Source: a virus
Taxonomy: Duplodnaviria; Heunggongvirae; Uroviricota; Caudoviricetes
Length of the DNA stretch: 6,095 nt
Strand: one strand, 5' to 3'
IMG/VR virus record: IMGVR_UViG_2744054675_000004
Span: 1-6,095 of that record
The translations under genes were made by a program, and so were the position numbers. The notes under the pieces are model-generated. The model was not told where the DNA came from. It searched no databases and was given only the letters and a program-made list of their open reading frames with translations. Each line of letters starts with the position of its first letter. The stretch's first letter is position 1. Shown here in pieces: positions 1-6,095 of this stretch.

Positions 1-205
1 TTTCATGTCGTGCATTGTTTGCAATGATTTTTGCTTCATAAGCAGAAATTACGTCATCTTCATGAATATCTTTCAGAAAGCTGGTGTCAAGACGTTGTAC
101 TATTTCAGCGTTCATTGATCGCTTATTGGCTTTTGCAGAAATTTCTATTTTTTCTTTTACTTCGACGGGAAGTCTGATCCTTAGTTGTGGATCTTCTCTG
201 CTCAT
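1..205 (-). CDS. mnt: Mnt-like ribbon-helix-helix repressor, 3' end runs off the window (partial)
   Basis: Minus-strand ATG at 205..203 opens a frame with no stop before position 1; it is absent from the ORF track because it is incomplete. Translation starts MSREDPQLRIRLPVEVKEKIEISAKANKRSMNAEIVQRLDTSFLKD, which matches my recollection of the P22 Mnt N-terminus (MARDDPHFNFRMPMEVREKLKFRAEANGRSMNSELLQIV). It is divergent from the arc/ant genes, as in P22 immI. Confidence 0.7.
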   Translation of the reverse strand, partial: MSREDPQLRIRLPVEVKEKIEISAKANKRSMNAEIVQRLDTSFLKDIHEDDVISAYEAKIIANNARHE

Positions 206-251
206 GTTCTTCACCAAATATTGAGTTACTTGCAATGATTGAAGTATGCCT

Positions 252-311
252 CACCGTGTGCTTGACATCAATGACGCACGGTGTGACAATTATTTTGCCC
301 CACGGTGGGGC
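252..311. promoter_or_regulatory. Divergent mnt / arc-ant control region: candidate sigma70 promoter and RHH operator palindromes
   Basis: TTGACA at 262-267, a 17-nt spacer, then GACAAT at 285-290 (plus strand, reading toward arc). Palindromic heptamers CACCGTG at 252-258 and CACGGTG at 277-283 and 301-307, the last inside the 15-bp near-perfect palindrome GCCCCACGGTGGGGC at 297-311. The CCACGGTGG core matches my recollection of the P22 mnt operator. Confidence 0.45.
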
Positions 312-325
312 TAAGGAGATATGAA

Positions 326-493
326 ATGCAAAAAGCAAAAGAGATGTGTCAACGACGAGTTCGTTTTCCGGACGATGTGAAGTTAGCTATTGAAAGAAAT
401 GGCGAAAAAGAATGCCGAAAGTTCAATACAGAGATTATCTATCAGCTGAGGAAAGTGTATGGACTCACTGGTGAGAAGAATAGCGTGGCATAA
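326..493 (+). CDS. arc: Arc-like small ribbon-helix-helix repressor (55 aa)
   Basis: ATG at 326 preceded by AAGGAG at 313-318. The ORF track starts this frame at an upstream GTG (305), but the ATG with the Shine-Dalgarno is the likelier start. Product MQKAKEMCQRRVRFPDDVKLAIERNGEKECRKFNTEIIYQLRKVYG... has the size and the basic beta-strand-then-helix pattern of P22 Arc, and sits first in the ant operon as in P22. Confidence 0.65.
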   Translation: MQKAKEMCQRRVRFPDDVKLAIERNGEKECRKFNTEIIYQLRKVYGLTGEKNSVA

Positions 494-503
494 AACAGCG
501 AAG

Positions 504-514
504 CCCCACGGTGG
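504..514. promoter_or_regulatory. Second CCCCACGGTGG copy in the arc-ant intergenic region (candidate operator or RNA structure)
   Basis: CCCCACGGTGG at 504-514 repeats the core of the 297-311 palindrome. It lies between the arc stop (493) and the ant ribosome-binding site (AGGA at 553-556). Confidence 0.3.
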
Positions 515-565
515 CCAGACCGTCAGGGCTTCAGTATCGTAAAACTACGTATAGGAATTAACGAC

Positions 566-1504
566 ATGACGAGTATAGCAACAGCAGTATCTACTATCAA
601 CGTGCCATTCCACGGCGCAGAGCTTTATGTTGTCAATCACAACGGCGAACCGTATACCCCAATGAAACCTATCGTTGAGGGAATGGGGCTAGACTGGAAA
701 TCTCAACATAAGAAGATTTCTCAACGCTTCTCGAAGGGTATGGTGGAAATCACCATACCTTCTGCCGGTGGGGTGCAAGCCATGATTTGTATGGCTTTAC
801 GAAAATTGGCAGCTTGGTTGAACAGCATCAGCCCTAACAAAGTCCGCCCTGAAATCCGCGACAAGGTAATCCAGTATCAGGAAGAGTGTGACGATGTGCT
901 CTACGAGTACTGGACTAAAGGCCATGTGGTTAACCCACGCAAAGCTAAAAAGGCGTTGCCGGGTAAAATAACAACTGAACAGCAGGAAGCCATTAAACAA
1001 CTCGTCATGAGTCGCGGTCAGTCTCTGCCAAAAGAAAAACAGGCTAAGGCGATGATCACCATGTGGTCGTCACTGAAATCTCATTTTGGCTGTTCGTACA
1101 AAGAAATTGGTGAAGATCAATTTGCCGAAGCGTTGTCTCTTGTTGCTCGGGTTCCGCTTGAAGGGGAGTATCTCCCTGCTGGATCTGCATCAGAGAATGA
1201 TGAAGTGGCAGTCAAGATGTTAGATGCGCTTCGTGAGGCAATTAAAACACAGACAAAATGTTATGGTTATCCATTGAAGCCAGGCTACCGCAGTCTGATT
1301 CATTCGCCGTCGGGTGTTCTCGGCCTGACGGAGAACTCACTGCTGATGAATCTGCTGAACCAGTTACAGGAAGACGGGCACGATGTATCGGGCGCGGCGG
1401 CGGAGCTGACCACCATGTTCTGCTACATCGTTGGTGTGAGCAAATGCCTGCGTGATATCCAGACGCACGCGGAATACATCAACGACAAGGCAGGGTTCTT
1501 CTGA
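566..1504 (+). CDS. ant: Phage antirepressor (Ant-type N-terminal domain plus conserved C-terminal module), 312 aa
   Basis: Complete ORF in the track. It sits immediately downstream of the arc-like gene in the same orientation (immI synteny). The N-terminal region (VPFHGAELYVVNHNGEPYTPMKPIVEGMGLDWKSQHKKI...) resembles AntA/P22-Ant type antirepressor N-domains from memory. The C-terminal ~75 aa are near-identical to the C-terminus of the 2560..3255 protein. Confidence 0.8.
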   Translation: MTSIATAVSTINVPFHGAELYVVNHNGEPYTPMKPIVEGMGLDWKSQHKKISQRFSKGMVEITIPSAGGVQAMICMALRKLAAWLNSISPNKVRPEIRDKVIQYQEECDDVLYEYWTKGHVVNPRKAKKALPGKITTEQQEAIKQLVMSRGQSLPKEKQAKAMITMWSSLKSHFGCSYKEIGEDQFAEALSLVARVPLEGEYLPAGSASENDEVAVKMLDALREAIKTQTKCYGYPLKPGYRSLIHSPSGVLGLTENSLLMNLLNQLQEDGHDVSGAAAELTTMFCYIVGVSKCLRDIQTHAEYINDKAGFF

Positions 1505-1530
1505 CAGAACGGCGGCACAGGGACGTGCAA
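1277..1530. repeat. Left arm of an inverted repeat (3' end of ant plus ~25 bp downstream)
   Basis: Manual alignment with the reverse complement of 2536-2787 gives about 11 mismatches over ~230 coding nt (~95%). Similarity continues past the stop codon through GGCACAGGGA(C/T)GTGC. Confidence 0.85.
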
Positions 1531-2460: not shown

Positions 2461-2472
2461 ATCGCGCCTCCT

Positions 2473-2515
2473 TTACCTTTAAGGTAATAGTACGCTATTC
2501 ACCCACAGTCTGCAA
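2473..2515 (-). promoter_or_regulatory. Candidate sigma70 promoter with overlapping TTACC-N5-GGTAA operator (site 1) for the cargo operon
   Basis: Minus strand reads TTGCAG (plus 2515..2510), 17 nt, TACTAT (2492..2487). Palindrome TTACC-TTTAA-GGTAA at 2473-2487 abuts the -10 and the Shine-Dalgarno. Confidence 0.4.
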
Positions 2516-2535: not shown

Positions 2536-2787
2536 GGCACATCCCTGTGCCACCGCCCGTCAGAAGAACCCTGCTTTGTCGTTGATGTACTCCGCGTGCG
2601 TCTGGATATCACGCAGGCATTTGCTCACACCGACGATGTAGCAGAACATGGTGGTCAGCTCCGCCGCCGCGCCCGATACATCGTGCCCGTCGTCCTGTAA
2701 CTGGTTCAGCAGATTCATCAGCAGTGAGTTTTCCGTCAGGCCGAGAACACCAGACGGCGAGTGAATCAGGCTACGGTAGCCGGGCTT
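2536..2787. repeat. Right arm of the inverted repeat (3' end of the Bro-N antirepressor gene plus ~25 bp downstream)
   Basis: Reverse complement aligns to 1277-1530; see left arm. Confidence 0.85.
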
Positions 2788-3255
2788 CAGCGGGGCGCTG
2801 TAGGTTTTGTTCTCTATCTTCATCGCCTGCATTACTGCTGACGCCGTGGCGTTGGCTACCTGGTCGGCAACCATCTTTATGCGTTCTTCCTGCGGGAGCG
2901 AGTTTTTAATGTAACTTCCGGTGCGGCGGATCTGAGGAAGAACCTCACCTGTAACCCATTTACGAAAGCGGTAGGGGATAGTGCCTGGTGTCACCGCATC
3001 GCGGCAGCGGAGGATCAGTGTGTAGAGGCCTGACTCGGAGATGATGATCGATTCTTGCTCACCGCCAGGGGTGTCGGTTGAAGCGACGCCCTTCTCATCA
3101 TCATCAAGTTTTCGAACAGCATCTCGATGGTTTGCTATGCCTATAGCCCGACAAACATCTGAAGCGATAAACCATGGCTCACCATTAATGACGATTACCC
3201 GTATATCGGCTTGGGATTCGAAAGAAAAAATGGACGTGCTTTTTGTAGCTGTCAT
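2560..3255 (-). CDS. Bro-N-domain antirepressor-like protein sharing the Ant C-terminal module, 231 aa
   Basis: Complete ORF in the track. The N-terminus (FESQADIRVIVINGEPWFIASDVCRAIGIANHRDAVRKLDDDEKGV ... FRKWVTGEVLPQIRRTGSY) fits the Bro-N domain signature from memory. The C-terminal 75 aa (KPGYRSLIHSPSGVLGLTENSLLMNLLNQLQDDGHDVSGAAAELTTMFCYIVGVSKCLRDIQTHAEYINDKAGFF) differ from the 566..1504 protein at a single residue (E/D). Confidence 0.8.
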   Translation of the reverse strand: MTATKSTSIFSFESQADIRVIVINGEPWFIASDVCRAIGIANHRDAVRKLDDDEKGVASTDTPGGEQESIIISESGLYTLILRCRDAVTPGTIPYRFRKWVTGEVLPQIRRTGSYIKNSLPQEERIKMVADQVANATASAVMQAMKIENKTYSAPLKPGYRSLIHSPSGVLGLTENSLLMNLLNQLQDDGHDVSGAAAELTTMFCYIVGVSKCLRDIQTHAEYINDKAGFF

Positions 3256-3451
3256 AGTGGTTACCTTTTAGTCTGGTTAATCACCACTACCGACGCCAAT
3301 CGGTTGGTGGTGAACTGTGCAGGGTTGGCGTAACCGGCTAAAAGGACCCGGCGCACCTTTCGGTGCCCCCACACAGCCCACCATAATACGAATGTGGCCG
3401 TGCTATACGCATAAAAAAACCGCTTGCGCGGTGAATGCGCCTTTTAGTAAT

Positions 3452-3489
3452 CCGGGACGCCAATCCCGGCACTGGATTTTTCCAGTGCC
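3452..3489. other. Tandem perfect hairpins in the divergent intergenic region
   Basis: CCGGGA-CGCCAA-TCCCGG (3452-3469), immediately followed by GGCACTGGA-TTTT-TCCAGTGCC (3468-3489; 9-bp perfect stem). No T-tract follows on either strand. Confidence 0.35.
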
Positions 3490-3524
3490 CGATTACTATG
3501 ACACAAGAGGAGTGCGATGTAAAT

Positions 3525-3539
3525 TTACCGCAAAGGTAA
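3525..3539. promoter_or_regulatory. TTACC-N5-GGTAA palindrome, site 2
   Basis: TTACC-GCAAA-GGTAA, centred about 93 bp upstream of site 3. Confidence 0.4.
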
Positions 3540-3616
3540 TGATAAGCGCGGAGGTATATAAAAATCAACCGTATTTGGTTGGTGGCGTTTAGCGCTTGAT
3601 CACCTGAAAGCAAGAT

Positions 3617-3633
3617 ATTACCTTTAAGGTAAT
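3617..3633. promoter_or_regulatory. TTACC-N5-GGTAA palindrome, site 3, just upstream of the 242-aa gene
   Basis: ATTACC-TTTAA-GGTAAT ends 20 bp before the ATG at 3653. The half-sites and spacer are identical to site 1. Confidence 0.45.
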
Positions 3634-3652: not shown

Positions 3653-4381
3653 ATGGAAGTTTTCTGGATAGTTGTTGGTGTGGTTGCGGTGATTATTTAC
3701 GTTATCAACCAGAACAAGACTAAGATCTCTGATCGTACGGTCGTTAATCATAACAAAACGATAAAGACCGAAGATGGGGAGATAACGATTAATCGTACAC
3801 AGGTGATAGAACACACCTCTACTCAGTTTCAAAAAACTGGAGGTAATGCGCCTAATATTTCCGCACCTCCTGCTTATGATAGTGCGGTAATCCAGACATA
3901 TTATAAACAGCAGGAGTTAGCAAAAGAGAGGCAACTGATTCAGCCAAAGCCGTTTACAGCTGAGCTTCCACCTGGAGTGTCAACGCCTCCGGCATATCAT
4001 GGAAGATTCCCTGGTGATGACATATCGTCTCAGTCATCTAAAAAAGCACCTCAGGCAGTATCAGAGCCAGCAAGAATACCTTCTGTATCGCCGCCAAAAG
4101 AAGAATCAGCTAACAGAGTTTCAAGTGGTAGCAAGCAGTGCTTGCGATGCAGAATAAACCTTCCGTATGAGAAGTTCAGGAAATCGTCAAAAAATCCAGA
4201 TGGATTGACTAAGTGGTGTGCAAGGTGTCTCGATGGCCCAAAGAATACACGTCATATGAAGTGGTGCCCAATTTGTAATGTCCGCAGAAAACGAACCAGC
4301 TTTTACCCTAATAATCAAAATGCGGATGGCTTAATGGCATGGTGTAAAACGTGCTGGGACGAGCACAAAGCGAAACGATAG
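3653..4381 (+). CDS. Hypothetical membrane-anchored protein with a Pro-rich linker and C-terminal tandem CxxC zinc-ribbon repeats, 242 aa
   Basis: Complete ORF in the track, with AGGA 7 nt upstream of the ATG. N-terminal hydrophobic helix EVFWIVVGVVAVIIYVI followed by NQNKTK. Low-complexity middle with two PPAY motifs. C-terminus has C-x2-C ... NPDGLTKWC-x2-C and C-x2-C ... NADGLMAWC-x2-C (8 Cys in 4 CxxC pairs). It is followed directly by a terminator. Confidence 0.65.
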   Translation: MEVFWIVVGVVAVIIYVINQNKTKISDRTVVNHNKTIKTEDGEITINRTQVIEHTSTQFQKTGGNAPNISAPPAYDSAVIQTYYKQQELAKERQLIQPKPFTAELPPGVSTPPAYHGRFPGDDISSQSSKKAPQAVSEPARIPSVSPPKEESANRVSSGSKQCLRCRINLPYEKFRKSSKNPDGLTKWCARCLDGPKNTRHMKWCPICNVRRKRTSFYPNNQNADGLMAWCKTCWDEHKAKR

Positions 4382-4404
4382 GCCGCTCTAGCGGCCTTTT
4401 CTTT
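4381..4404. terminator. Bidirectional rho-independent terminator between convergent genes
   Basis: GGCCGC-TCTA-GCGGCC followed by TTTTCTTT on the plus strand. The same hairpin lies directly after the stop of the minus-strand gene 4403..4660. Confidence 0.65.
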
Positions 4405-4660
4405 ATGTGGTTTGTTTTCGTAATTGTTCGGCACAATAGTCGAGATGTGTTTGCAGATCCTGCATAGACATCTGTGAGCTGGTGACGTAGTTAATCAGTG
4501 CAGTCAGTTCGGCAAGTGGGCCATCGACATTAAATCCATCCTTATCGAGATCCCGGAGTAATTTCATCAAGTGCGATCCCTCCACCAGTGACCTGACGCC
4601 TCCCGGCGTGTGAATCCTTTCGGTAAATCCGTCTTCCAGTGGATAGTGATACTGCTGCAT
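4403..4660 (-). CDS. Stand-alone homolog of the antirepressor C-terminal module, 85 aa; candidate SOS-inducible antirepressor
   Basis: Track ORF 4403..4678 starts at a TTG; the ATG at 4660..4658 with GGAG 8 nt upstream is the likelier start. The product (…HTPGGVRSLVEGSHLMKLLRDLDKDGFNVDGPLAELTALINYVTSSQMSMQDLQTHLDY…) aligns with the C-terminal module of both antirepressors (HSPSGVLGLTENSLLMNLLNQLQEDGHDVSGAAAELTTMFCYIVGVSKCLRDIQTHAEY) at roughly 40-45% identity by eye. A LexA box lies 20 bp upstream. Confidence 0.65.
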   Translation of the reverse strand: MQQYHYPLEDGFTERIHTPGGVRSLVEGSHLMKLLRDLDKDGFNVDGPLAELTALINYVTSSQMSMQDLQTHLDYCAEQLRKQTT

Positions 4661-4679
4661 CTTATCTTCTCCATGCAAT

Positions 4680-4699
4680 AACTGTATATTTATACAGTA
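4680..4699. promoter_or_regulatory. LexA (SOS) box
   Basis: AACTGTATATTTATACAGTA matches the E. coli consensus TACTGTATATATATACAGTA at 18 of 20 positions, with CTGT-N8-ACAG intact. It lies 7 bp upstream of the Shine-Dalgarno of the minus-strand gene 4403..4660. Confidence 0.7.
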
Positions 4700-4735
4700 T
4701 CAAATAATTTGTTTGCTATCCAGCACGTTTTGCAA

Positions 4736-4752
4736 ATTACCCGAAAGGTAAT
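4736..4752. promoter_or_regulatory. TTACC-N5-GGTAA palindrome, site 4
   Basis: ATTACC-CGAAA-GGTAAT in the divergent region between the LexA-boxed small gene and the tailspike gene. Confidence 0.4.
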
Positions 4753-4855
4753 ATCTATTGGTATTTATAGTCTTTCTATCCATATGTGGTTTTTCAGGTA
4801 ATAGAATAACCAGATATGCGGCGCAACGGGTGCTGCGACTATCTGGAGATTTAAC

Positions 4856-6095
4856 ATGACGGTCTCAACCGAAGTTGACCACAACGAATACACTGGTAAC
4901 GGAGCTACGACATCATTTCCGTATACCTTCCGTATTTTCAAAAAAACCGACCTGGTTGTTCAGGTGTCTGACCTGAACGGGAACGTAACAGAATTGGTTC
5001 TGGATACCGGTTATAAGGTAACTGGAGCGGGCACTTATAGTGGCGGTGAAGTGGTTCTCCCGTCGCCGCTTGCTGCTGGCTGGCGAATTACGATAGAGCG
5101 TGTGCTTGATGTGGTGCAGGAGACTGATCTTCGCAATCAGGGAAAATTTTTCCCCGAAGTTCATGAAGATGCATTTGACTACCTGACGATGCTGATCCAG
5201 CGATGTTTTGGGTGGTTCAGACGTGCATTGATGAAACCATCTTTGCTTGCAAAATATTACGATGCAAAGCAAAACAAAATTTCTAACCTTGCAGATCCAT
5301 CATTTGAGCAGGACGCTGTAAATAATCGCTCAATGCGTAATTATGTCGATGCTGCAATCGCCGGGGTTGTTGGTGGTTTTGGTTGGTTTATACCGTCAGG
5401 AAGCGGGGCAAGACAACGAACATTTCAAAGCAAAATGAGGGATATAATTTCTCCTTGTGATTACGAAGATAATATTTTTATGATTAAGGAGTTGATATCC
5501 AAAGGCAAAAATGCCGCTGTTTTTAACTCATATTATACTTTTGTTATTACTGTTGGCGAATGGGGTGATTACCCTACACTCAAAGATGCAATCATTGCAG
5601 CCCAGTCAATGAGGCCTATGTGGGATGGTGGTAATGCTTTCTGCGAAATAAGAATTAAGACCGGGCATATTATCAACTATCAAATTGAATTCAGTTCAGG
5701 TGTTGATTTGTCTTGGATTAAAATAACATCAGAAGACTCAGTGGTTTTCTCTGACACTCGTTTGTTTACTAAAATCGTTAGAACGTATTACGAATACAAG
5801 TATTTATTTTACATTTGCGATGCAGCAAAAAGTCCTGTATTTGCTATTCAGATCGAAGAAAATAGAGATGATAGCGATGTTTGTGCATTTATTGTAACTC
5901 AAAAAGCTGAACTTAATTTCTATCCGTATTCAGGTGCTCGAAAGTTCTACGTTGGAATTCATGGTAGTTTTGGTGCAAAAATTAGTGCATATCATACCGG
6001 ATGTGCTCCTGATGAGGAAAGTGTTGCTGCATATATGCCAGAAGGGTATTACGTATGTGATTTTTCTTATAGCAGATACTCTTCCCTGCAACTGG
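4856..6095 (+). CDS. Tailspike / tail fiber protein, 5' part (runs off the window)
   Basis: ATG at 4856 with GGAG 7 nt upstream; open to the window end (absent from the track because there is no stop). The N-terminus (EYTGNGATTSFPYTFRIFKKTDLVVQV ... QNKISNLADPSFEQDAVNNRSMRNYVDAAIAG) resembles the T7 gp17-type tail-fiber N-terminal particle-binding domain from memory. The downstream AT-rich part contains GDYPTLKDAI, reminiscent of the P22 tailspike motif SDYPTLQDA at the start of its beta-helix. Confidence 0.8.
   Translation, partial: MTVSTEVDHNEYTGNGATTSFPYTFRIFKKTDLVVQVSDLNGNVTELVLDTGYKVTGAGTYSGGEVVLPSPLAAGWRITIERVLDVVQETDLRNQGKFFPEVHEDAFDYLTMLIQRCFGWFRRALMKPSLLAKYYDAKQNKISNLADPSFEQDAVNNRSMRNYVDAAIAGVVGGFGWFIPSGSGARQRTFQSKMRDIISPCDYEDNIFMIKELISKGKNAAVFNSYYTFVITVGEWGDYPTLKDAIIAAQSMRPMWDGGNAFCEIRIKTGHIINYQIEFSSGVDLSWIKITSEDSVVFSDTRLFTKIVRTYYEYKYLFYICDAAKSPVFAIQIEENRDDSDVCAFIVTQKAELNFYPYSGARKFYVGIHGSFGAKISAYHTGCAPDEESVAAYMPEGYYVCDFSYSRYSSLQL

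What the first reader, a model, noticed from the sequence alone, without database searches (positions are those of the whole stretch)
4403..4699. Near-consensus LexA box directly upstream of a stand-alone copy of the antirepressor C-terminal module
The 85-aa product is homologous to the C-terminal ~75 aa shared by both larger antirepressors, and its gene sits 20 bp behind an 18/20 match to the LexA box. LexA-controlled small antirepressors are an established way of coupling prophage induction to the SOS response (coliphage 186 Tum, the Gifsy prophage antirepressors). This suggests the conserved C-terminal module is the functional unit, with one copy wired to DNA damage and two others fused to different N-terminal domains under other control. 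I do not know this specific module to be characterised.
Basis: partly seen in the sequence, partly recalled or inferred. Interest (0 to 1): 0.8.

Follow-up and report, generated by a model that had tools for sequence, protein, structure and literature searches.

The report
Known SOS-controlled small phage antirepressor
This is the E. coli-prophage copy of a small antirepressor (Ant of Salmonella phage SPC32H) that has already been studied and crystallised; the host LexA protein keeps its gene silent until DNA damage, so the finding is real but already explained, and the only less familiar point is that the same protein module is also grafted onto two other antirepressor cassettes in the window.

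Summary
An 18/20 LexA box (4680-4699) lies 19 nt upstream of an 85-aa gene (4403-4660, minus strand). Its product aligns with the C-terminal ~80 aa of both larger antirepressors (42% identity, E about 1e-16).

The module is not uncharacterised. The protein is 88% identical to Ant of phage SPC32H, the antirepressor chain in PDB 5D50. Published work describes that Ant as a LexA-controlled tetramer that breaks up the non-cleavable Rep repressor.

The window is about 96% identical to phage TL-2011b, whose genome encodes a Rep homologue. The box, its spacing and an extended -10 (TG-n-TACTGT, the left arm of the box) are conserved across related E. coli, Salmonella and Enterobacter phages. The gene is under strong purifying selection (dN/dS about 0.05).

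The 312-aa protein is a P22/CUS-3-type Ant whose P22_AR_C domain has been replaced by this module, and it sits in an mnt-arc-sar cassette. The 231-aa Bro-N protein sits behind isrK and C4 RNAs.

Verdict: an unannotated member of a known system, low to moderate interest. The arrangement of three cassettes carrying one module is the only fresh point.

The parts
4403..4660 (-). ant: 85-aa small antirepressor (stop codon 4403-4405), orthologue of SPC32H Ant / PDB 5D50 chain E
   Evidence: ORF. 88% identity to SPC32H ant, which is annotated 'anti-repressor protein'. phmmer E=1.3e-47 to 5D50_E. phrog_450 E=1.4e-47. dN/dS about 0.05 against Salmonella and Enterobacter orthologues.
4667..4672 (-). Shine-Dalgarno sequence GGAGAA, 6 nt before the ATG
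   Evidence: Read from the sequence. GGAG is invariant in 8 phages.
4680..4699 (-). LexA (SOS) box; reads TACTGTATAAATATACAGTT on the gene strand
   Evidence: 18/20 to consensus, 0 of 200 shuffles. Same position, 19 nt from the ATG, in SPC32H, epsilon15, phiV10, Tyrion and BUCT554, and in 59 of 61 viral contigs with a recognisable start. The deposited SPC32H and SPC32N sequences differ by ACAG to AAAG in this box.
4694..4722 (-). Inferred ant promoter: -35-like TGGATA (4717-4722), 17-nt spacer, extended -10 TG (4701-4702) plus TACTGT (4694-4699, the left arm of the LexA box)
   Evidence: CTGGA, TG and TA-TGT are invariant columns in the 8-phage alignment, while the spacer varies. The annotated p95 promoter of phage 186 has the same geometry: -10 is TACTGT, the first 6 nt of its LexA box, preceded by TGc. 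The strict consensus scan did not call this promoter, so it is an inference.
4736..4752 (.). ATTACCCGAAAGGTAAT, a phage-repressor (Rep) operator-type palindrome between ant and the tailspike gene
   Evidence: Four copies in the window, with 0 of 200 shuffles reaching four. Twelve copies each in the SPC32H and TL-2011b genomes, including the rep-cro intergenic region. The equivalent site in the epsilon15 record is annotated protein_bind 'repressor'. Conserved in 8 phages.
4380..4397 (.). GC-rich hairpin between the converging 242-aa ORF and ant; likely the shared terminator
   Evidence: Terminator-like site.
566..1504 (+). 312-aa antirepressor: P22_AR_N domain (residues 12-121) plus a P22/CUS-3-type middle part plus the Ant module (residues ~230-312, nt 1253-1501)
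   Evidence: Pfam P22_AR_N E=6e-45, no P22_AR_C. 89% identical to CUS-3 Ant over residues 1-222, then diverges; CUS-3 has P22_AR_C in that position. The C-terminus matches 5D50_E, E=7e-14.
2..564 (.). P22-immI-type control region: mnt-like RHH gene fragment (2-205, -), promoter-like TTGACA-17-GACAAT (262-290, +), arc-like gene (326-493, +), sar antisense RNA (497-564, -)
   Evidence: Pfam Arc E=2e-15 and 48% identity to CUS-3 Mnt. Promoter-like site. PHROG 'Arc-like repressor'. Rfam sar 44.8 bits against a gathering score of 43.
2560..3255 (-). 231-aa antirepressor: Bro-N domain (residues 17-107) plus the Ant module (residues ~148-231, nt 2563-2814)
   Evidence: Pfam Bro-N E=2e-21. The C-terminus matches 5D50_E, E=2e-13. 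99% identical to phage ZX5 ORF4, whose over-expression lowered lysogen counts about 1000-fold (PMC9782041).
3303..3488 (-). Leader of the Bro-N ant gene: isrK-type sRNA (3413-3488) followed by C4-type antisense RNA (3303-3388)
   Evidence: Rfam isrK 76.7 bits (gathering score 50) and C4 77.7 bits (gathering score 45). Same order as the Gifsy-1 isrK-orf45-anrP locus (PMC4825925).
3524..3633 (.). Two further Rep-operator-type palindromes (3524-3540, 3617-3633), between the Bro-N ant leader and the divergent 242-aa ORF
   Evidence: The site at 3524-3540 overlaps or abuts two minus-strand promoter-like sites (3568-3539 and 3523-3495).

Best explanation
The 85-aa gene is the ant gene of an epsilon15/phiV10-like (Uetakevirus-type) E. 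coli prophage, and it is repressed by host LexA.

Proposed mechanism:
1. In a lysogen, LexA sits on the box at 4680-4699. The left arm of the box doubles as the -10 element of the ant promoter, so ant is silent.
2. DNA damage activates RecA, LexA cleaves itself, and ant is transcribed.
3. Ant assembles as a tetramer and binds the C-terminal tetramerisation domain of the phage repressor Rep. Rep has an HTH domain and no S24 peptidase domain, so it cannot self-cleave.
4. Binding splits the Rep tetramer into dimers that bind DNA poorly. The ATTACC-N5-GGTAAT operators are freed and the lytic genes switch on.

Shown here: the box, the gene, their conserved geometry, orthology to the crystallised Ant, purifying selection, and a Rep homologue with operator-like sites in the nearest relative.

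Taken from the literature on the 88%-identical SPC32H protein: LexA control, the tetramer, and Rep disassembly.

Inferred: the exact promoter, and that the two fused copies (P22_AR_N-Ant under mnt/arc/sar; Bro-N-Ant behind isrK/C4 RNAs and operator-like sites) deliver the same Rep-binding module in response to other signals.
For: Box statistics.

Orthology: 88% identity to SPC32H ant and E=1e-47 to 5D50_E 'Anti-repressor protein'.

Synteny with a divergent tailspike gene in nine related phages.

The LexA box sits at an identical 19-nt distance, with invariant TG-n-TA.TGT, CTGGA, operator and GGAG blocks, while the spacers vary. 59 of 61 viral contigs keep the box.

SPC32H and SPC32N, the phage pair in which the system was defined, differ in exactly the conserved C of ACAG in this box.

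dN/dS is about 0.05 with synonymous sites saturated.

TL-2011b, about 96% identical to 72% of the window, encodes a Rep homologue (86 of 198 residues identical) with HTH_3 and no peptidase domain, and carries 12 operator-type palindromes, including one in the rep-cro intergenic region.

Literature: SOS/LexA-dependent Ant synthesis (PMC7380047 citing Kim & Ryu 2013); an Ant tetramer binds two Rep dimers and breaks the Rep tetramer (PMC9638917 citing Kim et al. 2016); Ant contacts the Rep C-terminal domain (PMC9986798).

The annotated 186 p95 promoter has the same layout, with the -10 forming the left arm of the LexA box.
Against: No experiment exists for this E. coli version.

The window stops before the immunity region, so its own repressor was not seen.

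The Rep of the nearest relative is only about 43% identical to SPC32H Rep although Ant is 88% identical, so the pairing is assumed rather than shown.

The consensus promoter scan found no sigma-70 site in 4300-4900.

The two primary papers could not be read here. Their content rests on secondary citations and on my recollection of the 2013 abstract.

Klebsiella relatives have a weakened left arm (ATGT instead of CTGT), so LexA control may not be universal in the family.
Confidence: 0.85

Rival explanations
1. The small Ant does not act mainly on the prophage's own Rep. It may target repressors of co-resident related prophages (cross-talk). Alternatively, because Ant is an oligomer, it may form mixed oligomers with the paralogous modules of the two large antirepressors and so modulate them.
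For: Three paralogous modules sit in one 6-kb window at 42% identity, with 22 invariant core positions. Ant is reported to be a tetramer. Antirepressors that act on non-cognate repressors, and antirepressors under phage-repressor rather than LexA control, are documented for Gifsy and Fels-1 (PMC3121763). Ant is much more conserved than Rep (88% against 43%).
Against: SPC32H, epsilon15 and phiV10 carry only the stand-alone copy (one place per record), and the literature reports that this copy acts on the phage's own Rep. No data exist on hetero-oligomers.
Confidence: 0.1
2. The LexA box serves the divergent tailspike gene (or both genes) rather than ant.
For: The box lies in a 195-nt divergent intergenic region (4661-4855). 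The consensus scan called no promoter for either gene there.
Against: The box is 19 nt from the ant ATG but 157 nt from the tailspike ATG, with the operator palindrome in between. The conserved TG-n-TACTGT and CTGGATA elements read on the ant strand. A structural gene under direct SOS control would make no sense in a repressed prophage.
Confidence: 0.04
3. The 85-aa ORF is a non-functional remnant of a duplicated antirepressor 3' end, and the LexA-like palindrome is fortuitous.
For: It looks like a detached copy of the C-terminus of its neighbours. Public annotations mostly call it 'hypothetical protein'.
Against: dN/dS is about 0.05 across genera. Length, start, ribosome-binding site and box spacing are all conserved. 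It is 88% identical to a protein with demonstrated function and a solved structure. The box never arose in 200 shuffles.
Confidence: 0.01

Closest known systems
Ant-Rep-LexA switch of Salmonella phage SPC32H (Kim & Ryu 2013, J Virol 87:11775; Kim et al. 2016, PNAS 113:E2480; PDB 5D50)
   Same: The protein is orthologous (88% identity, same length). The gene sits in the same position, divergent from the tailspike gene. The LexA box is at the same 19-nt distance, the repressor-operator palindrome lies upstream in the same way, and the nearest relative has a Rep homologue.
   Different: The host is E. coli and the phage is a TL-2011b/phiV10-like mosaic. The Rep of the nearest relative is only about 43% identical. 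This genome also carries two extra antirepressor genes ending in the same module, which SPC32H lacks (one place per record).
Phage 186 Tum and its SOS promoter p95
   Same: A LexA-repressed antirepressor that inactivates a non-cleaved repressor. The promoter has the same architecture, with the -10 TACTGT forming the left arm of the LexA box and preceded by TGn. The 186 box is the same 20-mer as the epsilon15 ant box.
   Different: There is no sequence relationship (BLASTP E=0.07). Tum is 146 aa with a DinI-like half, whereas Ant has no Pfam domain.
Gifsy-1/-2/-3 antirepressors GfoA, GftA and GfhA (Lemire et al. 2011, PMC3121763)
   Same: Small antirepressors outside the immunity region, under direct LexA control, that bind non-cleavable repressors. 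The paper also documents antirepressors under other control acting in trans.
   Different: The Gifsy genes lie in a dinI-ant-irsA operon and form A2B2 complexes. Here ant is monocistronic, and the published orthologue is a tetramer that disassembles a tetrameric Rep.
P22/CUS-3 immI region (mnt, arc, sar RNA, ant)
   Same: The 312-aa gene has the P22_AR_N domain and is 89% identical to CUS-3 Ant over 222 residues. It has an Arc-like gene, a divergent Mnt-like gene and a sar RNA match.
   Different: The P22_AR_C domain is replaced by the SPC32H-Ant-type module.
P1 immI c4 antisense RNA - ant, and the Gifsy-1 isrK-orf45-anrP locus (Hershko-Shalev et al. 2016, PMC4825925)
   Same: isrK and C4 covariance-model hits well above gathering score lie directly upstream of the Bro-N antirepressor, in the same order as isrK-orf45-anrP.
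   Different: The antirepressor ends in the SPC32H-Ant-type module. Rep-operator-type palindromes flank the putative promoter. The short ORF in between is only weakly supported (GTG start, 37 codons).

Membership tests
SPC32H-type small antirepressor Ant (PDB 5D50; PHROG phrog_450) | Full-length sequence homology to SPC32H Ant in a stand-alone protein of about 86 aa | tested here: met
   88% identity over residues 2-85. phmmer E=1.3e-47 against 5D50_E. phrog_450 E=1.4e-47.
SPC32H-type small antirepressor Ant (PDB 5D50; PHROG phrog_450) | LexA box overlapping the promoter immediately upstream of ant | tested here: met
   18/20 box located 19 nt from the ATG. Same position in 5 other phages and 59 of 61 contigs. 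The promoter overlap is inferred from the conserved TG-n-TACTGT.
SPC32H-type small antirepressor Ant (PDB 5D50; PHROG phrog_450) | Gene located between the virion/injection genes and the divergently transcribed tailspike gene of an epsilon15-like podophage | tested here: met
   The tailspike gene starts at 4856 on the opposite strand. Same layout in SPC32H, epsilon15, phiV10, Tyrion, BUCT554 and the Klebsiella phages.
SPC32H-type small antirepressor Ant (PDB 5D50; PHROG phrog_450) | Cognate non-cleavable Rep-type repressor in the same genome | tested here: inconclusive
   The window ends before the immunity region. The nearest relative, TL-2011b, has gp10, which shares 86 of 198 residues with SPC32H Rep and has HTH_3 but no S24 peptidase domain.
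SPC32H-type small antirepressor Ant (PDB 5D50; PHROG phrog_450) | LexA binds the box; Ant binds Rep and disassembles its tetramer | not testable with these tools
   Needs EMSA or footprinting and protein-protein assays. Known only for SPC32H, from the literature.
Phage 186 Tum family (DinI-fused antirepressors) | Sequence homology to Tum / a DinI-like domain | tested here: not met
   BLASTP E=0.072 for the single comparison. No DinI or other significant Pfam hit.
Phage 186 Tum family (DinI-fused antirepressors) | SOS promoter whose -10 element is the left arm of the LexA box | tested here: met
   186 p95 is annotated with its -10 at the first 6 nt of the LexA site, read as gTGcTACTGT. The window reads tTGaTACTGT. 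This is a similarity in how the two work, not evidence of homology.
Gifsy-type LexA-controlled antirepressors (GfoA/GftA) | dinI-antirepressor-irsA operon behind the LexA box | tested here: not met
   ant is the only ORF between the box and the hairpin at 4380-4397. The operon is described in PMC3121763.
Gifsy-type LexA-controlled antirepressors (GfoA/GftA) | Sequence homology to GfoA/GftA | not tested
   The sequences were not fetched. My recollection of the Kim & Ryu abstract is that it calls Ant structurally distinct from the Sipho- and Myoviridae antirepressors.
P22-type Ant (for the 312-aa protein) | P22_AR_N domain and an mnt/arc/sar control region | tested here: met
   P22_AR_N E=6e-45. 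Arc-family proteins on both sides. sar RNA 44.8 bits against a gathering score of 43.
P22-type Ant (for the 312-aa protein) | P22_AR_C C-terminal domain | tested here: not met
   Absent from the window protein but present in CUS-3 Ant. Replaced by the 5D50-type module.
P1 immI / Gifsy-1 isrK-anrP cassette (for the 231-aa protein) | C4-type antisense RNA and/or isrK sRNA in the leader of an antirepressor gene | tested here: met
   C4 77.7 bits (gathering score 45) at 3303-3388 and isrK 76.7 bits (gathering score 50) at 3413-3488, both on the gene strand.
P1 immI / Gifsy-1 isrK-anrP cassette (for the 231-aa protein) | Short upstream ORF (icd / orf45) translationally coupled to the antirepressor | tested here: inconclusive
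   A 37-codon GTG ORF at 3261-3374 ends 5 nt before ant. It is annotated 'ash family protein' in ZX5 and has no PHROG hit.

The most novel reading that the evidence does not exclude
One prophage delivers the same Rep-disassembling module through three regulatory cassettes of different ancestry:
- a 186-p95-like LexA promoter driving the bare module;
- a P22 immI cassette (mnt/arc/sar) in which P22_AR_C has been swapped for the module;
- a P1/Gifsy-type isrK-C4 RNA cassette, flanked by Rep-operator-like sites, driving a Bro-N fusion.

This would mean that the C-terminal domain of modular Bro/KilA-N/Rha/AntA/P22_AR_N antirepressors is an exchangeable unit that sets which repressor is targeted. 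It would also mean that this phage family integrates SOS, superinfection-immunity and RNA-based signals on one repressor.
Probability: 0.45. Interest if true: 0.5.

Novelty: new member of a known kind. Interest (0 to 1): 0.3.

Why it matters
The core finding adds nothing new mechanistically. It identifies an unannotated E. coli orthologue of a system that has been solved genetically and structurally.

Its practical value lies in annotation. The gene is called 'hypothetical protein' in nearly all records, phrog_450 is labelled 'unknown function', and neither Pfam nor NCBIfam has a model, even though the fold is in the PDB.

Parts of the window match 1359 of 5426 complete E. coli genomes, and the closest phage records come from EHEC, APEC and K1 strains. 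Recognising this SOS-driven induction route matters for predicting which antibiotics will induce these prophages.

If the three-cassette reading is right, it gives a clean natural experiment on what the C-terminal domains of the large and poorly understood Bro/Ant protein families do. The experiment is the replacement of P22_AR_C by a module whose target is known.

Tried and rejected
- The primary papers (Kim & Ryu 2013; Kim et al. 2016) and the epsilon15 genome paper are not held. I relied on secondary citations and on the deposited sequences.
- The strict sigma-70 scan of 4300-4900 found no promoter. The promoter was instead inferred from conservation and from the 186 p95 annotation.
- The word-indexed protein search returned only close stand-alone relatives of 85-127 aa, nearly all unnamed.
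- The viral-contig scan returned 80 near-identical copies. These were useful only for showing that the box is retained.
- NCBIfam and PADLOC gave no hits for any protein tested.
- Pfam gave only a sub-threshold DUF724 match for the small protein, which I dismissed.
- Homology to 186 Tum was tested and rejected.
- A search for further LexA boxes (up to 4 mismatches) upstream of the two large antirepressor genes found none. SOS control of those genes is therefore rejected.
- The 'decayed fragment' reading was rejected on dN/dS.
- I did not run structure prediction. At 88% identity to a crystallised chain it would add nothing.

Full report
**What is in the sequence**

The window has exactly one match to the E. 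coli LexA-box consensus at up to three mismatches. It is AACTGTATATTTATACAGTA at 4680-4699, with two mismatches, and none of 200 dinucleotide-preserving shuffles produced a match. It contains a perfect CTGT-N8-ACAG.

On the minus strand, 19 nt downstream of the box, an ATG at 4660 opens an 85-codon frame that ends at 4403. The ORF tool lists this frame from an upstream TTG as 91 aa. A GGAGAA at 4667-4672 and the start of the orthologous annotated and crystallised protein both favour the ATG.

The product aligns without gaps to the C-terminal ~75 residues of two larger ORFs. It is 42% identical (E=3e-16) to the 312-aa ORF at 566-1504 on the plus strand, and 42% identical (E=2e-15) to the 231-aa ORF at 2560-3255 on the minus strand.

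**What it is**

The window comes from an epsilon15/phiV10-like podophage of E. coli. It is about 96% identical over 72% of its length to phage TL-2011b. It is mosaic with other Uetakevirus-type phages and with the P22-like phage CUS-3. Parts of it occur in 1359 of 5426 complete E. coli genomes.

By tblastn, the 85-aa protein is 100-97% identical to unnamed 'hypothetical proteins' of E. coli phages. It is 88% identical to the gene annotated ant, 'anti-repressor protein', of Salmonella phages SPC32H and SPC32N. Against the PDB it matches one sequence only, chain E of 5D50, 'Anti-repressor protein', with E=1.3e-47 over residues 2-85.

The two primary papers are not in the held library. Papers that cite them state the following:
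- In several Salmonella prophages, SOS induction and LexA self-cleavage lead to synthesis of an antirepressor that inhibits the lytic repressor by protein-protein contact, citing Kim & Ryu 2013 among others (PMC7380047).
- The C-terminal tetramerisation domain of Rep is the part that contacts Ant (PMC9986798).

My recollection of the 2013 abstract is that SPC32N differs from SPC32H by two nucleotides. One lies in the LexA site overlapping the ant promoter, making Ant constitutive. The deposited sequences bear this out. In the 6.25 kb around ant they differ at two positions, and one changes ACAG to AAAG in the right arm of the box.

**Evidence that the E. coli copy is functional and wired the same way**

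Upstream regions from eight phages (E. coli, Salmonella, Enterobacter, Klebsiella) align into conserved blocks separated by variable spacers. In order, the blocks are the palindrome ATTACC-N5-GGTAA(T), then CTGGA(T/A)A, then TG-n-TA(C)TGT...ATACAGT, then GGAG and ATG.

The LexA box is 19 nt from the start codon in the window, in SPC32H, epsilon15, Tyrion and BUCT554, and in 59 of 61 IMG/VR contigs with a recognisable start; phiV10 has it at the equivalent aligned position. The Klebsiella phages have ATGT in place of CTGT in the left arm.

I read the invariant TG-n-TACTGT as an extended -10 element formed by the left arm of the box, with TGGATA 17 nt upstream as the -35. The strict consensus scan did not call this promoter. 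However, the annotated SOS promoter p95 of phage 186 has exactly this layout: its -10 is the first six bases of its LexA site and is preceded by TGc.

Against its Salmonella and Enterobacter orthologues the gene shows dN of 0.08-0.12 with saturated dS, giving dN/dS of about 0.05. That excludes a decaying fragment.

The window stops short of the immunity region. TL-2011b encodes gp10, which shares 86 of 198 residues with SPC32H Rep. Like Rep, gp10 has an HTH_3 domain and no S24 peptidase domain.

The palindrome ATTACC-N5-GGTAAT occurs four times in the window, and none of 200 shuffles reached four. It occurs twelve times in each of the SPC32H and TL-2011b genomes, including the rep-cro intergenic region. 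The epsilon15 record annotates the copy next to its ant gene as a repressor-binding site.

**The two larger antirepressors**

The evidence agrees.

Neither large gene has a LexA box at up to four mismatches.

The 312-aa protein:
- It has a P22_AR_N domain.
- It is 89% identical to CUS-3 Ant over residues 1-222 and then diverges. CUS-3 has P22_AR_C at that point, whereas the window protein has the 5D50-type module.
- It sits in a P22-immI-type cassette: a divergent Arc/Mnt-family gene (Pfam Arc E=2e-15; 48% identical to CUS-3 Mnt), a promoter-like TTGACA-17-GACAAT, an Arc-like gene, and a sar antisense RNA match between arc and ant (44.8 bits against a gathering score of 43).

The 231-aa protein:
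- It has a Bro-N domain plus the module.
- It follows an isrK-type sRNA (76.7 bits, gathering score 50) and a C4-type antisense RNA (77.7 bits, gathering score 45). This is the order seen at the Gifsy-1 isrK-orf45-anrP locus (PMC4825925).
- Operator-type palindromes at 3524 and 3617 flank its candidate promoters.
- It is 99% identical to ORF4 of phage ZX5. Over-expression of ORF4 lowered lysogen titres from 1e9 to 1e6 and repressor mRNA by 75% (PMC9782041). That paper did not notice the small ant gene or the LexA box.

A profile of the module was searched against 1.84 billion representative proteins and found only 61 clusters. Some are stand-alone proteins of 80-95 aa. The others are fusions of 150-319 aa with the module always at the C-terminus. 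The N-terminal partners are Bro-N, AntA, Phage_pRha and ORF6N, in addition to P22_AR_N. The module is thus one more exchangeable C-terminal domain in the well-known shuffling of phage Bro/KilA-N-type regulators, but one whose target is known.

**Comparison with known systems**

The small gene meets every sequence-testable criterion for the SPC32H Ant family. It works like 186 Tum and the Gifsy antirepressors but is not their relative. It has no significant similarity to Tum (E=0.07), no DinI domain and no dinI-ant-irsA operon. Homology to GfoA/GftA was not tested.

**Verdict**

- Observation: confirmed.
- Interpretation: supported, but already established for an 88%-identical orthologue with a crystal structure.
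- Classification: a new, unannotated member of a known kind.
- Interest: low to moderate.

The part I could not find described is the coexistence of three cassettes of different ancestry that all end in the same Rep-targeting module, including a clean replacement of P22_AR_C. I put about 45% on this reflecting a real multi-input design acting on one repressor. The remaining possibilities are cross-talk with other prophages or mosaic leftovers.

Noticed in passing
window 2472-2488, 3524-3540, 3617-3633, 4736-4752: There are four copies of the palindrome ATTACC-N5-GGTAAT, and none of 200 shuffles gave four. The same motif occurs 12 times each in the SPC32H and TL-2011b genomes, including the rep-cro intergenic region, and is annotated as a repressor site in the epsilon15 record. 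These are probably Rep operators scattered in front of accessory and late genes.
   Followed up: partly
window 3303-3388 (-) and 3413-3488 (-): Rfam C4 antisense RNA (77.7 bits) and isrK sRNA (76.7 bits) lie in the leader of the Bro-N antirepressor gene. There is also a sub-threshold c4-a1b1 target match at 3449-3501. The arrangement is that of P1 immI or the Gifsy-1 isrK-orf45-anrP locus.
   Followed up: partly
window 497-564 (-): A match to sar antisense RNA (Rfam RF00262, 44.8 bits against a gathering score of 43) lies between the arc-like gene and the 312-aa ant gene, as in P22 immI.
   Followed up: partly
window 566-1504 (+) vs CUS-3 ant (L095 1566-2489): This is a clean domain swap. The two proteins are 89% identical over residues 1-222. 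After that, CUS-3 has P22_AR_C and the window protein has the SPC32H-Ant-type module.
   Followed up: yes
window 1236-1505 and 2559-2828: A 270-nt inverted repeat, 90% complementary, is formed by the 3' ends of the two large ant genes. It brackets a 1053-nt segment that carries a small membrane protein (1578-1739, -), a protein that RefSeq annotates as a YafO-family toxin in TL-2011b (1832-2413, -) and a 55-aa partner ORF (2293-2460, -). The segment could invert by recombination.
   Followed up: no
window 3653-4381 (+): A 242-aa ORF (phrog_6762, unknown function) has an N-terminal hydrophobic stretch and two C-terminal Cys-rich repeats that weakly match the endonuclease VII, Stc1 and Lar zinc-finger families. 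In TL-2011b this region is annotated only as a misc_feature ('similar to hypothetical protein'), not as a CDS.
   Followed up: no
window 4403-4660 and public annotation: There is an annotation gap. The protein has a solved structure (5D50), yet PHROG phrog_450 is labelled 'unknown function', Pfam and NCBIfam have no model, and PGAP and GenBank call it 'hypothetical protein' in nearly all E. coli records.
   Followed up: yes
L089-L092 (Klebsiella phages), about 20 nt upstream of ant: In the Klebsiella relatives the left arm of the LexA box reads ATGT instead of CTGT, while the right arm is intact. LexA control may be weaker or lost there.
   Followed up: no
L096 9045-9064 (phage 186 p95) vs L086 (epsilon15 ant upstream): The LexA boxes of 186 tum and epsilon15 ant are the identical 20-mer TACTGTATGTTTATACAGTA. 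Both are preceded by TGn, although the downstream proteins are unrelated.
   Followed up: partly
window 4856-6094 (+): The tailspike gene is mosaic. The N-terminal adaptor part is shared with many epsilon15-like phages up to about 5391. The remainder matches a different set of phages (for example JEP4 at 5681-6095).
   Followed up: no
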